Source: Octopus vulgaris | Taxonomy: Eukaryota | Direction of reading: 5' to 3' | DNA: 64,000 nucleotides | Assembly: GCA_951406725.2 (NCBI GenBank) | Contig: OX597817.1 | Span: 42,160,001 to 42,224,000, forward strand | Shown here: positions 3,530 through 59,181 of the stretch, in pieces | Layout: each line of letters opens with the position of its first letter | Numbering within the stretch: position 1 is the first letter of the stretch | Program-made: the position numbers and the translations under genes | Notes under the pieces: generated by a model | Seen by the model: only the letters and a program-made list of their open reading frames with translations | Told to the model about the DNA's origin: nothing | Database searches by the model: none

Positions 3530-4768
3530 TAATGTTTCTGCCAGTATTTCACCCGTCTATTCAGTTAACAGTAATACCAGTCACAACAGTAACTGGGAGT
3601 TACTCTTAAAATAGACTGGCATCCTATCCAAGGGGAATATTCGATGTTAGGAGGAACAACAACCTGAAATTCTATTCCTGGTACAGAAGGGATTTTTTAA
3701 TATTAGCTTTAGTTACCTTTAAACTTGGCTTCATAATGTCCCTAGAAATCATTTGATATGGTGTGGTATAAAATTGCTATATTTCTTTAGCCATATCTGC
3801 AATATCATTTGTGAAGGAGCGTGGGTCAGTGGTTAGAGCGTCAGGCTTATAATCATGAGGTAGTGAGTTTGATTCCCAGACAGGGCTGTGTGTGTGTGCG
3901 CCATAGTCCATTGTTTCAGTCAATGGACTATGGTCATGCTGTAGCACCACCTTGATGGACTTAGCTTAGCTGACCAAATCAACTCTGGGACTTACTCTAA
4001 TCAGTCTCTTTTGCCAGTTTGGTAAGTTACATGGATGTAAACAAACCAACGCTAGGTGTCAAGTGGTAGGGGTGATGTAACATAACCACAGAAACATATA
4101 CATTATGTATACATTTATTACATTTATGTGTGCACACACACACACACATATATATACTACTATTACTACTAACTACTACAACTGCTACAACAACAACTAC
4201 TACTATTGCTGTGGTTATGTTACATCACCCCTATCACTTGAGAACTAGCGTTGGTTTGTTTACATCCTTGTATCTTACCAAACTGGCAAAAGAGACTGAT
4301 TAGAGTAAGTCCCGGCATTGATTTGATCAGCTAAGCAAAGTCCATCAAGGTGGTACTGCAGCATGGCCATAGTCCATTGACTGAAACAATGGACTATGGC
4401 ACACACACACACAGTCCTGTCTGGGAATCAAACTCACTACCTCATGATTATAAGCCTGACGCTCTAACCACTGACCCATGCTCCTTCACAAATGATATTG
4501 CAGATATGGCTAAAGAAATATAGCAATTTTATACCATACCATATCAAATAATTTCTAGGGACATTATGAAGCCAAGGTTAAAGGTAACTAAAGCTAATAT
4601 AAAAACCCTTCTGTACCAGAAATAGAATTTCAGGTTGTTGTTCCTCCTAACATCGAAAATTCCCCTTGGATGGGATGCCAGGCTATTTTAAGAGTAACTC
4701 CCAGTTACTGTTGTGACTGGTATTACTGTTAACTGAGTAGACGGGTGAAATGCTGACAGAAATGTTGG
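3530..4768. repeat. Long inverted duplication: arms 3530-4091 and 4209-4768, 117-bp spacer
   Basis: Arms are reverse complements with scattered substitutions; each holds unique DNA, a tRNA-like SINE head (3816-3885) and a SINE-B tail. Confidence 0.96.
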
Positions 4769-13370: not shown

Positions 13371-13572
13371 ATCAAAATAAGCAACAAGGATATCCAGAGG
13401 TAATGCAGTATGATCGTTTCATGCGACTTCAATTAAATGGAGTCACATGAAATGATCGTACTGCATTACCTCTGGAAATCCTTGTTGCTTATTTTGATTT
13501 TAATCACCTTACTTTGAAATTGTATGGATAACACCGTACTAAATTCTGGTGCCTCAACTTAAGTACCATATT
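13371..13572 (+). mobile_element. Fold-back Penelope-like remnant, family P-B: arms 13371-13431 / 13438-13498 plus tail, in (TCTA)n
   Basis: ~61-bp inverted arms containing the 3' half of a hammerhead (GAAAyGATCGTA-CTGCAT); tail matches 56775-56885 and 59040-59150. Confidence 0.85.
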
Positions 13573-13593
13573 CATCTGTATCTATCTATCTAC

Positions 13594-32990: not shown

Positions 32991-35068
32991 CGATTCAAAA
33001 TTGGGATTTGTTATTTGCAACCATGAAATTTATGATAAACATAAACCAGACAAATCAAAAACCAGACTGATGATGGAAACAATAAACCGATCAGTCAAGA
33101 TTGATGAATGTGCAACAAATTCTTTGAACAAACAGCCGACCCGCCATACAATATTGTTCTCCACAGTGTTTATCACACAAGACGTCCGACATTCAAATGA
33201 AGTTTGCTAAAAGTATTTAGTCACCAAATGTTGTTTATTTTGCTATCTTTCACTTTTTACATGTCTCAGTCATTAGATTCTAGCCATACTGGGGCACTGA
33301 CTTGAAGAATTTTAGTCGAATGAGTTGACTATAATACTTACTCCTTTTAAGCTTGGTACTCACTTTATTAGTCACTTTTGCCCAAGCACTCAGTTATGGG
33401 GACATAAACACACCAATACCATTTGTCAAGCAGGAGGGGAAAACACAGACACAAAGACACAGAGACACACAGATAAACACACACACACACACACATGCTC
33501 ACACACACACACACACACACACACATATAATCTTGTGAGTGGAGTTGATAGATGGAAACTAACAATATATATGTGTGTGTGTATATATATATATATATAA
33601 ACGCTGTAAAGCTAAATACTTTATGGACGTGAAACCTAGGGTAATCCCATGGACTGGCCTTATCTATCTTGATATATATCATCATCATCATCATATATAT
33701 ATATATATATATATGAAGGGTTGCACTTGCAACCCCTATCTCAATTTGTAACTATATATATATAACTTAATACTAAAACTCTAGCGATGTTTGTTTGTAC
33801 CTGAAATATCTCAGAAATAGTATATTTTATCTTACTTTTTTTTTTGCATATTTATTTTCATACTTACCTTTGGCAGTGCAGAATAAATTTTTGTGGCATC
33901 TGGTCCTCTATTTATTAATGAAAACGAGTAAACACAATTTTTGTGTTTACTCATGACATCAACACACATACACACATACCGAATACAAACATATATAATG
34001 AATGTCATGGATTCGGTCAACATAAACACATGTCCACTATCTGTAACATATACACACACATAGTCTTCACACTCTCTAAGAAAAAAAAACGTTGACTTTT
34101 TGGTGTACACAATATTTTAATCATTTAGAAATATTTTTTACTGAATGTGATTTCAAAAATGTAAGTTGTTTGTACAGTAGGTATTTATATTTTAGCTTTC
34201 TGTAAATAGACCATATTTTAATGTTTTTTTAATTATTTTTAAGTCGTTAATTTCCATAAAAAATATTTTATTTATTTACTTTTGTTTTAGAATGAGAGGA
34301 GAAAGTGAAAGATGTATGTATGAAATGGACATATGCGTGTGAAAGAGAGAGAGAGAGAGAGAAAGAGAAGGAGGGAGGGAGAGAGAGAGTGAAGAGGTGT
34401 GTTGTCGTGTATATGTACATATATCAATACATATGCATACATCTTTTTTGTATGTACGTGTGCATGTGTGTGTGTGTGTGAGAGAGACAGAGAGTGAGTG
34501 AGTGAACGTGTGTGTTCCCATGGATGTGTAAGCGGCATTCTCTCTTTCTCTCTCACATGCACGCACACATACACACATACACATCCATTTCATATACACA
34601 TTCAGATATCTTTCACTTTCTTCTCTCACTTTAAAACAAAAGTGAATAAATAAAAACATTTTTACGGAAATTAAGGAACGAAACCAGCTGATCCAGATGA
34701 CAGTTCTGAGAGTCAAAGCAAAAGATCACCCCATGGGAATACCAATACAAGAAATTTTTTCAAATGCATTCAATGTATCTCAGCTCCAAAGATTTGGCTG
34801 CTATTTCTAGTATGCCCCGCTACCATGTAACTCCTATTTGCAATAAAGGACCAGAAATACTTGTTACATGGTAGCAGGGCATGCAAGAAATAGCAGCTAA
34901 ATCTTTCCTTTTCCAGTGAAAGAAGCTGTTTACACATGATTTTGATGCCACATTCGTTGAAAGCATGCAAAATAACCTAGATAAGAAAAAATAACCCATG
35001 AAACTCCATTGCTGAGTAACTCAAAGTTTCCAGGTGTCCCAACAGGTCACAGGTAGTCCAGTATATAT

Positions 35069-35730
35069 ATAAGGATAAAATTTTCCAAAAAAAATTTTAT
35101 CAGTGGCTAGCATATTAAAATACCTTTCAAGGTGAAAATCATAAACAATAATAAGGCGTAGAAGTTGCTGTGTAGTAAGTAACTTGCTTACAAACCACAT
35201 GGTTCCAGGTTCAGTCCCACTGCATGGCACCATGGGCAAGTGTCTTCTACTATAGCCTCGGGCCGACCAAAGCCTTGTGAGTGGATTTGGTAGACGGAAA
35301 CTGAAAGAAGCCCGTCGTATATATATGTATATATATGTATATATATGTATGTGTGTATATGATTGTGTATCTGTGTTTGTCCCCTCAGCACTGCTTGACA
35401 ACTGATGCTGGTGTGTTTAGGTCCCCGTAACTTAGTGGTTCGGCAGAAGAGACCGATAGAATAGGTACTAGGCTTCCAAAAAATAAGTCCTGGGATCGAT
35501 TTGCTCGACTAAAGGCGGTGCTCCAGCATGGCCGCAGTCAAATGACTGGAACAAGCAAAAGAGCAAAAGAGCAAAGAGCAAGGGCAAAAGAAAAAAAATT
35601 TTTATGCCAATATGCTGGAAAATAGACCTTAGATTGTCTAACCATATACAATATTGTATTTGGTTAGACAATCTAAAGTCTATTTTCCAGCATATTGGCA
35701 AAGAAAATATTTTTCTTTTGCCTTTATGAT
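35069..35730 (-). mobile_element. Fold-back family P-C, split by a SINE-B (35155-35580); spacer-less palindrome centred at 35652/35653
   Basis: 48-bp arms 35605-35700 with 2 mismatches; tail 35069-35152 matches 56900-56980. Confidence 0.8.
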
Positions 35731-55215: not shown

Positions 55216-55249
55216 ATATCAATATAAGCAACAAGGATATCCAGAGGTA

Positions 55250-55338
55250 ATGCAGTATGATCGTTTCATGCGACTCCATTTAATTGAACAATGCAAATAT
55301 GACATCAATTTAAAATGTAGAGCAATCTTCAGCTGCAT
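55250..55338 (-). ncRNA. Type-I hammerhead motif with long stem-loop II
   Basis: AUGCAG-CUGAAGA-uUGC..GCAu-GAAA-CGAUC(A/G)UA|CUGCAU; perfect 6-bp stem I; the 13449-13466 copy supplies GUA. Confidence 0.78.
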
Positions 55339-55371
55339 AAAAATATAGAATTTAGTTAAAATTTAGATAAC

Positions 55372-55596
55372 ATTTGGGAGTTAAAATAAAATGAAATTAG
55401 ATTTAGCCTTAAATGGGACATTGTAAGCAAAGCACAACCTTATAAAAATAATAGATATGGATGTGAACTTTGCTCCATGGAGATATATGAAATTTTGAAA
55501 CATAGGGATAATGTAAACTTATTAAATAACTGTTTAGAACTAGGAGAATCGTGTATACATTGTACTACCTGTACCTTTAGATATTTTTTAAAATAG
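55372..55596 (+). pseudogene. Penelope-type GIY-YIG endonuclease C-terminal fragment (one in-frame stop)
   Basis: IWELK*NEIRFSLKWDIVSKAQPYKNNRYGCELCSMEIYEILKHRDNVNLLNNCLELGESCIH; homologous to 39079-39336. Confidence 0.82.
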
Positions 55597-55779
55597 CATT
55601 TTATTATTCCTGAATTTTAGATCTTAATGCTTACCTATTGATTTTTTAAAAATCAATAAAGAAATAGCATACCCTGCTATATTTATTATTTAATCAGCAC
55701 TAGGTATTAAGAAATTTAATTATCATAAACAAATTGAATAAAGTTGAATAAAATAATTTTTAAATTTCTAAAATTATTA

Positions 55780-56222
55780 CATAGACGAGAGAGGTGTGCA
55801 GTAATATATATCTGGAAGATCCTGGAAGGAATTGTGCCAAATTTTGGCATTGAAAGCTACACCAATACCAGAACGGGACGACATTGCATAGTGCCAAAGA
55901 TCCCAGCAATGCTATCATGCTTCAGGACCAGTTACTGCAACAACCTGGGTTTCAAGGGCCCACAGCTTTTTAATATTCTCCCAAAGAGTCTGAGGAACTT
56001 GCACAAAGTAGATGTAGGGGCTTTTAAATCAAAGCTGGACCTCTTCCTGTCAAGAGTCCCAGATGAACCTACCTCACGGCAAGAGGTGCAAATGAGGGTA
56101 GCTATATCAAACTCCATTCTTCACCAAGTGCCACATATTAGAGGAGGCTCTTAGTAATAACAGCGTAGCACAAAATGGCAGTGCATCAGCATGCCCACAG
56201 CTCTGAGCTGTAACTAGAAAAA
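55780..56222 (+). mobile_element. CR1/L2-group LINE 3' end nested in the Penelope UTR
   Basis: RRERCAVIYIWKILEG..GPQLFNILPKSLRN..FKSKLDLFLSRVPDEP; 3' UTR matches the SINE-B tail. Confidence 0.85.
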
Positions 56223-56894
56223 ATTTTTTAAATAAAACATAAATTCTATGTATATCTAATGAAGTTATTAAGTTGTATACTTACTCCACAATAAATTTTA
56301 ATGATTTGGTAATTTTCACATCTATTTCTACGAGAATTTAGCTCCATCTAATCTTTTTCGATATTATAATAATACCTTTACATAAGCCTAAATTATTATA
56401 CCCCATATAACCATACTTTACTCTTAATATAAAATATAAGATTTTCCCCCTCCAAAAAAATTAAATTAATTCTTTTTCTCTATATTTTCATTTTATAATT
56501 TTATTTTTGGTTACCTCCCTTCCATTGTAATTTAAGGTTTTTGGTATGTGAGTAAATTAATGCCTTATTTACTGGGAATCTCCTCTTCAAAAGATCTTCT
56601 AAATCTCCTTAATTAATATTTAAATCCTGATAAAAATAGATAATAATATTTAAATTTTTGAGAAATTGCTTGGTTTCTATTTCTCTCAAATAGCTCTACC
56701 CTCATGATCTTTGCATGTATTAGAAAGCTTTATAAAAATAAATTATAAAAAATTACCAATTATAAAAAAGTACCAATTATTTTGATTATAATCACCCCAT
56801 TTTGAATTATATGGATAATACCATACTGAATTCTGGTTCCTTTAACTTCAGTACCATATTCGACTGAATCTAAATTTTACTGAATATATATATA

Positions 56895-58968: not shown

Positions 58969-59014
<46 letters not shown>

Positions 59015-59146
59015 CAAAATAAGCAACAAGGATTGCTTATTTTGATTATAATCACCCCATTTTGAATTATATGGATAATACCATGCCAAATTCTGGTGCC
59101 TTTTAACTTAAGTACCATATTCAACTGAATCTAAATTTTTACTGAA

Positions 59147-59181
<35 letters not shown>

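What the first reader, a model, noticed from the sequence alone, without database searches (positions are those of the whole stretch)
55218..56885. Key copy linking a hairpin family to a Naiad-like Penelope endonuclease and a hammerhead
Seen: the arm that forms the hairpins at 13371 and 59009 here extends into a complete hammerhead (minus, 55250-55338; 6-bp stem I, unusually long loop II). It is followed by an unlisted reading frame IWELK..LKWDIV..QPY..CELC..LLN..EL...CIH and ends with the same 3' tail. Known: this WxLK/CxxC/LLN/CxH C-terminus resembles GIY-YIG endonucleases of the Naiad/Chlamys PLE clade (recognised from memory, not by alignment). This is the direct in-window evidence for the origin of the hairpins.
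Basis: partly seen in the sequence, partly recalled or inferred. Interest (0 to 1): 0.78.

Follow-up and report, generated by a model that had tools for sequence, protein, structure and literature searches.

The report
Broken Hydra-clade Penelope retroelement copy
This is a broken copy of a Penelope-type jumping gene of the known Hydra group, not the Naiad group; its flipped end carries a predicted self-cutting RNA with an unusually long arm, and the nearby DNA hairpins are very short insertions of the same element, so it is a new family of a known kind.

Summary
55218-56885 is a 5'-truncated, 5'-inverted copy of a Penelope-like element (PLE). [quoted passage not shown] That is the published Hydra-clade definition (PMC8557442). 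Naiad/Chlamys have an N-terminal endonuclease and no canonical hammerhead. No cysteine-position UGA was seen. The window copy is dead: in-frame stop, nested LINE fragment, about 0.9 kb deleted. Its hammerhead is antisense to the ORF and has a stem III mismatch. The hairpins at 13371 and 59009 are very short inverted insertions with variable junctions. The roughly 100-nt tail is the element's 5' UTR. All 41 genuine inverted pairs carry it at exactly one end, which fits two internal RT start sites (PMC11167929). The 58-nt stem II arm covaries across subfamilies and is longer than in listed Hydra hammerheads. The family differs from Hydra-1_Obim. The scan noted the same fold-back architecture earlier on other DNA of this genome. 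New member of a known kind.

The parts
55218..55360 (-). Inverted copy of the element's 3' end (pLTR), tail-less, ending at the inner fixed end (site 1) against (TA)n
   Evidence: 143 nt, 90-99% identical to the sense 3' ends of other copies; same end point in the tail-less ends listed
55250..55338 (-). Type I hammerhead: 6-bp stem I, core CUGAAGA/GAAA, U.U then 3-bp base of stem II with a 58-nt arm, short palindromic stem III with a C.A mismatch in this copy; antisense to the ORF
   Evidence: covariation; no Rfam hit
55361..55366 (.). Inversion junction, 6 unmatched bases
55367..55596 (+). C-terminal half of a Hydra-type GIY-YIG endonuclease (CxxC..E..LN..CxH), with an in-frame TAA at 55387-55389; true stop at 55594-55596
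   Evidence: full domain in L110 gives Pfam GIY-YIG E 0.0086 and I-TevI fold
55597..55783 (+). AT-rich 3' UTR, first part
   Evidence: 78-90% identical in EN-bearing loci
55784..56236 (+). Nested later insertion: 3' fragment of an abundant LINE, possible 5-bp target duplication; CR1/L2-like label is recalled
   Evidence: absent from relatives; 69% identical to the C-terminus of a longer LINE frame in L097; edges; very high depth
56237..56776 (+). 3' UTR, second part, ending at a deletion of about 0.9 kb with 3-nt microhomology that removed the sense hammerhead
   Evidence: comparison with L032, L039, L040
56777..56790 (+). Remnant of the pLTR end up to site 1 (TTATA inside a 12-bp palindrome)
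56791..56885 (+). Tail of about 95-100 nt between the two fixed ends; it is the element's 5' UTR in full-length copies; followed by (TA)n
13371..13584 (.). Short inverted insertion of the same family: arms 72 and 74 nt plus tail
59009..59147 (.). Very short inverted insertion of the same family: arms 24 and 17 nt plus tail

Best explanation
This is a dead, 5'-truncated and 5'-inverted copy of a Hydra-clade Penelope-like retrotransposon, and the neighbouring hairpins are shorter insertions of the same family, likely made when two reverse transcriptions start at two fixed points about 100 nt apart on the element RNA, one on each nicked strand of a (TA)n target, and are joined head to head. Shown: the layout pLTR with hammerhead, site 1, tail, site 2, about 50 nt, ATG, RT, Asn-rich linker, CxCX5C, GIY-YIG, stop, long 3' UTR, pLTR; insertion in (TA)n; two fixed outer ends; exactly one tailed end per inverted pair; variable inner junctions; read-through of the hammerhead cut site. 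Inferred: a transcript running through a pLTR into the next 5' UTR is the template; the endonuclease nicks both strands; a protein dimer primes at site 1 and site 2; both cDNAs usually stop early and are joined at short homologies. In this copy the site-2 cDNA ran to the endonuclease and the site-1 cDNA stopped after 143 nt; the stop codon, the LINE insertion and probably the deletion came later. The hammerhead is predicted to cut only as a dimer or with protein help, and cut RNA is not the main template.
For: Domain order and motifs in genome copies. Hydra definition. Seven RT homologues at 37-41% identity, all with DKT, CNC-X5-C-like linker and C-terminal CxxC/CxH; C103, C106, E109, N124, C133, H135 invariant with the window peptide. 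GIY-YIG: Pfam E 0.0086, 18 of 100 relatives at E<0.01, top fold match I-TevI, probability 0.99. Tail = 5' UTR: 17 tail ends continue into the UTR and ATG, 53 into (TA)n, 8 other. Inverted pairs: 43 called; 2 were false left ends and 1 a missed tail, leaving 41 of 41 with exactly one tailed end, none with two; 17 of these came from loci not picked by a tail query. The tail can sit on the sense or the inverted arm (13 and 4 of 37 loci tabulated). 50 of 58 tail-less ends abut TA repeats. Exact counts 1778, 1365, 1171 show no drop at the cut site. In vitro precedent for two internal RT starts, both strands nicked and extended, a predicted dimer, uncut template: PMC11167929.
Against: No RT tree with named Hydra references was built; membership rests on motifs and on reading the paper's alignment by eye. 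Pfam and Foldseek matches are weak (below Pfam's cut-off; E 0.022) and a profile search of PDB sequences found nothing. The element is longer (about 4.3 kb) and its tail longer (about 100 nt) than published (<3 kb; 30-40 nt). Palindromes at some short junctions (L066, L068) also fit self-priming. Arm-length correlation holds in the tail-selected set (rho 0.94, n 13) but not in the hammerhead-selected set (rho -0.19, n 11; selected for one long arm). The two-start mechanism was shown for a Poseidon element, not for Hydra. The 0.9-kb gap could be a template jump rather than a later deletion. No cleavage or expression data. Confidence: about 0.95 for Hydra-clade identity and hairpin origin, about 0.6 for the two-start mechanism.
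Confidence: 0.85

Rival explanations
1. The peptide is a Naiad/Chlamys endonuclease, possibly a selenoprotein.
For: Naiads exist in octopus genomes, insert in (TA)n and show the same inverted and tail layout.
Against: The endonuclease is C-terminal, after RT and before the stop; motif is DKT, not DKA; no CCHH cysteine pair between the GIY and YIG strands; a canonical hammerhead is present; CxxC/CxH is described for Hydra; no cysteine-position TGA. The Naiad_Obim protein start seen is unlike this family.
Confidence: 0.02
2. Same element, but the hairpins form by self-priming (snap-back) of one cDNA at a palindrome, as proposed for rotifer PLEs.
For: Palindromes at some short junctions and near-equal arms in short hairpins; arm lengths correlate in the tail-selected set; proposed in PMC3846280.
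Against: The tail-less arm is longer than the tailed arm by more than 10 nt in 15 of 26 pairs and shorter in only 4; a strand copied back from the tailed cDNA cannot be longer unless later deletions intervene. It does not explain why the second arm always stops at site 1, or why the tail can be on the short inverted arm of ORF-bearing copies.
Confidence: 0.2
3. The hairpins are a separate non-autonomous family (MITE-like or retrozyme) that amplified as a unit.
For: Short ends greatly outnumber ORF-bearing copies: hammerhead-bin depth is about 220-250 times endonuclease-bin depth in three runs (a rough guide, not a copy number).
Against: All 26 measured pairs have different arm lengths and junctions; many lack a whole hammerhead; no tandem arrays with a hammerhead per unit were seen among the fetched loci. 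Some stubs could still come from shortened non-autonomous transcripts.
Confidence: 0.07
4. Hammerhead-cut, circularised unit RNA is the template, and the fixed ends arise by pairing of internal TATA motifs with the (TA)n target.
For: Both fixed ends fall at TTATA-like motifs in most subfamilies; circles were proposed in PMC4209133; a religated circle would also read through the cut site.
Against: The end point is kept in copies with TTGTA at site 1, and the young subfamily has a weaker motif at site 2; full-length copies carry up to 512 nt of upstream pLTR; PMC11167929 found initiation without homology to the target and no need for cleavage.
Confidence: 0.15

Closest known systems
Hydra clade of C-terminal EN+ PLEs (Craig et al. 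2021, PMC8557442), including Hydra-1_Obim
   Same: Single ORF, RWK-like and DKT motifs, CxCX5C linker, C-terminal GIY-YIG without CCHH, CxxC..E..N..CxH, canonical type I hammerhead with the U.U / TGC..GCA stem II base seen in several Penelope_HM families, (TA)n targets, inverted 5' copies.
   Different: Not Hydra-1_Obim (different N-terminus, hammerhead and length, compared by eye). About 4.3 kb against <3 kb for nearly all; long Asn-rich and low-complexity inserts between RT and EN; 3' UTR about 1.3-1.4 kb; stem II region 58-59 nt against roughly 10-26 nt in the listed Hydra hammerheads; tail about 100 nt.
Poseidon_Ac in vitro (Frangieh et al. 2024, PMC11167929)
   Same: Tail bounded by two fixed ends inside the pLTR-ORF junction, AT-rich target, cut site read through.
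   Different: Different clade; there the tail is 30-40 nt and inside the ORF, here about 100 nt and in the 5' UTR. Here the evidence is genomic only.
Adineta vaga Penelope families (Arkhipova et al. 2013, PMC3846280)
   Same: Inverted pLTRs, optional one-sided tail, Asn-rich insert between RT and EN, palindromes at junctions.
   Different: Other clades; low copy number.
Naiad/Chlamys PLEs (PMC8557442)
   Same: GIY-YIG endonuclease, (TA)n bias, inverted ends and tail.
   Different: N-terminal EN, DKA/DK, CxC, IFD, no canonical hammerhead.
Metazoan non-LTR retrozymes (bioRxiv 10.64898/2026.07.22.740005)
   Same: Type I hammerhead related to PLE pLTRs, non-coding, abundant.
   Different: Retrozymes are tandem direct repeats with a hammerhead per unit; these are inverted stubs of variable length.

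Membership tests
Hydra clade PLE | Single ORF with RT and C-terminal GIY-YIG EN | tested here: met
   Order ATG-RT-linker-EN-stop across L100, L108, L110 and others; each examined copy has breaks; fold match to I-TevI
Hydra clade PLE | DKG changed to DKT; RWK motif near the N-terminus | tested here: met
   ADKT in L108 and L110; RRIRW(I/K) in full-length copies
Hydra clade PLE | CxCX5C linker motif | tested here: met
   CNC-R-I/T/V-K/R-S-H/K-C in L002, L006, L100, L108
Hydra clade PLE | No CCHH motif in the EN | tested here: met
   One cysteine only between the two core strands, no CxxC there
Hydra clade PLE | [quoted passage not shown] | tested here: met
   Invariant across the window peptide, L110 and seven homologues; definition
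Hydra clade PLE | No IFD, no CxC | tested here: inconclusive
   RT is collinear, 1% gaps, with a Hydra-type homologue; not aligned against Naiad references
Hydra clade PLE | Canonical hammerhead in the pLTR; (TA)n targets | tested here: met
   50 of 58 tail-less ends abut TA repeats
Hydra clade PLE | Generally short (<3 kb) | tested here: not met
   L108 unit about 4.3 kb; the paper gives this as a tendency, not a criterion
Hydra clade PLE | RT groups with Hydra in a phylogeny | not tested
   Named reference proteins were available only as paper text
Naiad/Chlamys | N-terminal GIY-YIG EN | tested here: not met
Naiad/Chlamys | DKA (Naiad) and CCHH (Naiad); no canonical hammerhead | tested here: not met
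Naiad selenoproteins | UGA at conserved cysteines plus SECIS | tested here: not met
   No TGA among the five commonest residues at EN cysteine columns in 84 stretches; SECIS not searched with a dedicated tool
Type I hammerhead ribozyme | Core CUGANGA, GAAA, NUH with three helices | tested here: met
   69 of 90 copies parse, 40 of 90 fully paired; window copy has one stem III mismatch
Type I hammerhead ribozyme | Helices supported by covariation | tested here: met
   45 double-change cells against 15.7 shuffled, 21 copies; shared ancestry inflates this; the middle stem II helix shows no double change
Type I hammerhead ribozyme | Self-cleavage | not testable with these tools
   No pile-up of truncations at the cut site
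Non-LTR retrozyme | Tandem direct repeats each with a hammerhead | tested here: not met
   Inverted stubs with variable junctions; only fetched loci examined

The most novel reading that the evidence does not exclude
The family is a large genomic record of an asymmetric PLE dimer: one subunit always starts at the inner site and the other at the outer site of one RNA, and the two copy in step, which gives exactly one tail per insertion and matched arm lengths. A duplicated hairpin-plus-box motif in the 5' UTR would position the two subunits, and the covarying 58-nt stem II arm would be a selected docking or folding element not described in PLE hammerheads.
Probability: 0.3. Interest if true: 0.6.

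Novelty: new member of a known kind. Interest (0 to 1): 0.3.

Why it matters
It corrects a clade call and explains a common hairpin repeat as PLE debris. The family offers more than a thousand ends with which to test how PLEs make inverted ends and one-sided tails, a step the in vitro work left open. Its hammerhead escapes Rfam and exceeds the stem II sizes listed for Hydra elements, so such ribozymes are probably undercounted. The window copy itself has no likely function.

Tried and rejected
Rfam: no hammerhead hit in the region; the whole-window list shown was simple-repeat miRNA noise (150 of 248 rows seen). Pfam on the window peptide and on RT fragments: nothing relevant. First homologue search with the EN region against longer proteins: 0 of 27 candidates. 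PDB sequence search with a 100-sequence profile: none. Stem II folding z-scores are weak in the young subfamily, including the window copy (-0.4 to -1.1), and stronger in three older copies (-2.2 to -3.4); unconstrained folds often miss the hammerhead. A generic hammerhead scan of the window printed nothing, not even this motif, because of lazy matching; no conclusion drawn. Sequencing runs: no RNA holder listed; the guessed-RNA run X13 did not cover the endonuclease part; neither bears on expression. Pile-up of truncations at the cut site: not found (77% retention over the 5 nt before the site, 86% across it, with degenerate CpG positions in the second pattern); the next step upstream was not measured. 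A fixed ruler from box to start site: the spacing differs (about 43 nt after site 1, about 20 nt after site 2). A second structure model and a VIA-align search were not finished when last polled. Earlier findings near this place or by sequence: none. Literature searches; none listed this family or a long-stem-II Hydra hammerhead, but Repbase, Dfam and subscription papers were not searchable.

Full report
Observation. The stretch from 55218 matches the arms of the hairpins at 13371 and 59009, and 56777-56885 matches their tails. On the minus strand 55250-55338 reads as a type I hammerhead with a 6-bp stem I, both core boxes and an AUA cut triplet. Rfam finds no hammerhead there. The plus-strand frame at 55372-55596 has the motifs reported and one in-frame TAA at 55387-55389. 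The window lies in a 2.8-Gb genome of 227 contigs. That it is an octopus comes from an earlier AI note and my recall of the repeat landscape; I did not test it.

Anatomy of the family. A search with 55218-55640 gave 2794 candidates, 40 scored. In relatives the hammerhead arm and the endonuclease fragment are separated by 330-470 nt or by the whole RT, so their contact here is an inversion junction. Longer copies give the layout. L108 has a direct upstream pLTR of about 512 nt, then an ORF with RRIRW and ADKT, RT, a low-complexity Asn-rich region, CNC-X5-C, the endonuclease, a stop, about 1.3-1.4 kb of 3' UTR, the hammerhead and the tail; the unit is about 4.3 kb. Among 30 loci found with its 5' end, the full-length ones run hammerhead, site 1, tail, site 2, about 50 nt, ATG; 16 of 17 checked begin ATG-(G/A)A(A/G). 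The tail is therefore 5' UTR. Of 78 tail ends, 53 run into (TA)n, 17 into the UTR and 8 into other sequence (a few loci are the same place fetched twice). Several subfamilies exist, 74-99% alike. Each copy whose frames I listed is broken by stops or frameshifts; I did not look for an intact one.

The window copy. It has the inverted tail-less arm (55218-55360), the endonuclease C-terminus and 3' UTR, a nested LINE fragment (about 55784-56236; 69% identical to a longer LINE frame in L097; possible 5-bp duplication), more UTR, a gap of about 0.9 kb with 3-nt microhomology that removes the sense hammerhead, and the tail. It cannot encode a working protein. Its only hammerhead is antisense to the ORF and has C.A at 15.2-16.2, as do 11 of 69 parsed copies, against 54 with C-G.

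Protein. The RT of L100 finds seven unnamed homologues at 37-41% identity, E down to 3e-60. All have DKT/DKS-type, CNC and C-terminal CxxC..E..LN..CxH motifs, and six of these residues plus two hydrophobic positions are invariant with the window peptide. The L110 endonuclease finds 2873 representatives at E<0.001, and in the longest hits the match is near the C-terminus. Pfam GIY-YIG is weak, E 0.0086, below cut-off, and hits 18 of 100 relatives. A model of mean pLDDT 70.8 has I-TevI and UvrC GIY-YIG domains as top matches, best E 0.022, probability 0.99. A PDB profile search was empty.

Clade. Craig et al. define Naiad/Chlamys by an N-terminal endonuclease and the lack of canonical hammerheads (bioRxiv 10.1101/2021.04.23.441226, parts 1-5 of 7 read). 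They define Hydra by a C-terminal endonuclease, RWK, DKT, CxCX5C, no CCHH, CxxC and CxH around E and N, hammerheads and (TA)n targets (PMC8557442 section 11; passages). All motif criteria are met; length is not; no tree was built. Their supplement (parts 1, 2, 52, 53, 58 of 59 and one search) lists one octopus Hydra family, Hydra-1_Obim, 2507 bp, whose N-terminus and hammerhead differ from these by eye. No TGA appears among the five commonest residues at any cysteine column of 84 endonuclease stretches.

Hammerhead. Of 90 near-full-length copies, 69 parse and 40 keep stems I and III. The region between the core boxes is 58-59 nt in 64 of 69. In 21 copies chosen across subfamilies, the named structure has 45 double-change cells against 15.7 in shuffles, in stem I, the base of stem II and an apical hairpin; the middle helix has none (the structure was drawn from these sequences, and relatedness inflates counts). 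RNAalifold recovers the stem II base and the apical hairpin unaided but not stem I. An earlier set of 26 gave 20 against 6.6. The Hydra hammerheads tabulated in the supplement have much shorter stem II regions but often the same U.U-closed TGC..GCA base. The short palindromic stem III fits the dimer-dependent type (PMC4209133, parts 1-2 of 4). Exact genome counts fall from 1778 to 1365 over the 5 nt before the cut site and to 1171 over the 5 nt across it, so at least 86% of young-subfamily arms that reach the site read through it.

Hairpins. Tail-less ends stop at one position, after TTATA in a 12-bp palindrome, and 50 of 58 abut TA repeats. Of 43 called inverted pairs, two had false left ends and one a missed tail. 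All 41 genuine pairs have exactly one tailed or UTR-continuing end. About half were picked by tail-containing queries, which forces one tail but not the absence of a second; 17 were not. In ORF-bearing loci the tail is on the sense end in 13 and on the inverted end in 4 of 37 tabulated, never both. All 26 measured pairs differ in arm lengths and junctions. Arm lengths correlate in the 13 tail-selected pairs (rho 0.94) but not in the 11 hammerhead-selected ones; the tail-less arm is longer by over 10 nt in 15 of 26 and shorter in 4. Depth over the hammerhead is about 220-250 times that over the endonuclease in three runs from three organism labels, a rough sign that stubs dominate and that relatives share the family.

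Mechanism. Frangieh et al. (PMC11167929, parts 1-2 of 4) showed for a Poseidon element that both target strands are nicked and extended, that RT starts at two internal sites bounding the tail, that a dimer is predicted, and that hammerhead cleavage is not needed. The genomic pattern here fits: one cDNA from each site, one per target strand, joined head to head. That step is inferred. Snap-back priming (PMC3846280, passages only) explains palindromic junctions but not longer tail-less arms. Retrozymes (bioRxiv 10.64898/2026.07.22.740005, part 1 of 5) are tandem units and do not match. Earlier notes of this scan reached the same fold-back reading, and the two-start wording, on other DNA of this genome; they are leads, not support.

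Novelty. Inverted ends, one-sided tails, pLTR hammerheads and Asn-rich inserts are all published. New here are a second, longer Hydra family in this genome, a 100-nt tail in the 5' UTR, a long covarying stem II arm and the 41-of-41 count. Five literature searches did not list this family; repeat databases and subscription papers were not searched, and 54 of 59 supplement parts were not read. Verdict: new member of a known kind, interest 0.3.

Noticed in passing
L144-L168 5' UTRs; window 56830-56845: A 9-nt box (TTCTGGT-R-C) preceded by a small hairpin occurs twice in the 5' UTR, once inside the tail and once 24-26 nt before the ATG, in 15 of 17 full-length copies. The second hairpin keeps its stem while its 5-nt loop varies. 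Spacing to the two fixed ends differs.
   Followed up: partly
window 3695-4605: Inverted repeat with 400-nt arms, 95% complementary, around a 111-nt microsatellite spacer; unrelated to this family.
   Followed up: no
window 34792-34902 and 35614-35691: Two further near-perfect hairpins of about 110 and 78 nt, not matching this family's probes.
   Followed up: no
L032:2698-3312 and L098:6217-6828: Frames of other Hydra-type families lie beside fetched copies; the L032 frame resembles Hydra-1_Obim by eye.
   Followed up: no
G000 C29:29.57-29.69 Mb and C4:130.84-130.97 Mb: Copies recur at about 9-kb spacing on C29 and three times on C4 with shared flanks, suggesting capture in tandem or segmental duplications.
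   Followed up: no
L167 subfamily: A distinct subfamily with a tail about 20 nt longer and a better-paired stem II has many 96-99% identical ends (2580 candidates), so it expanded recently.
   Followed up: partly
L073, L077; run X5 joints to 56777: Several tailed arms stop within about 15 nt of site 1, as the window copy's gap does; a bound second RT could block the first there.
   Followed up: no
L004/L005 (G000 C8:23112083-23112709): The endonuclease C-terminus is itself duplicated as a 329-nt inverted repeat inside one copy.
   Followed up: no
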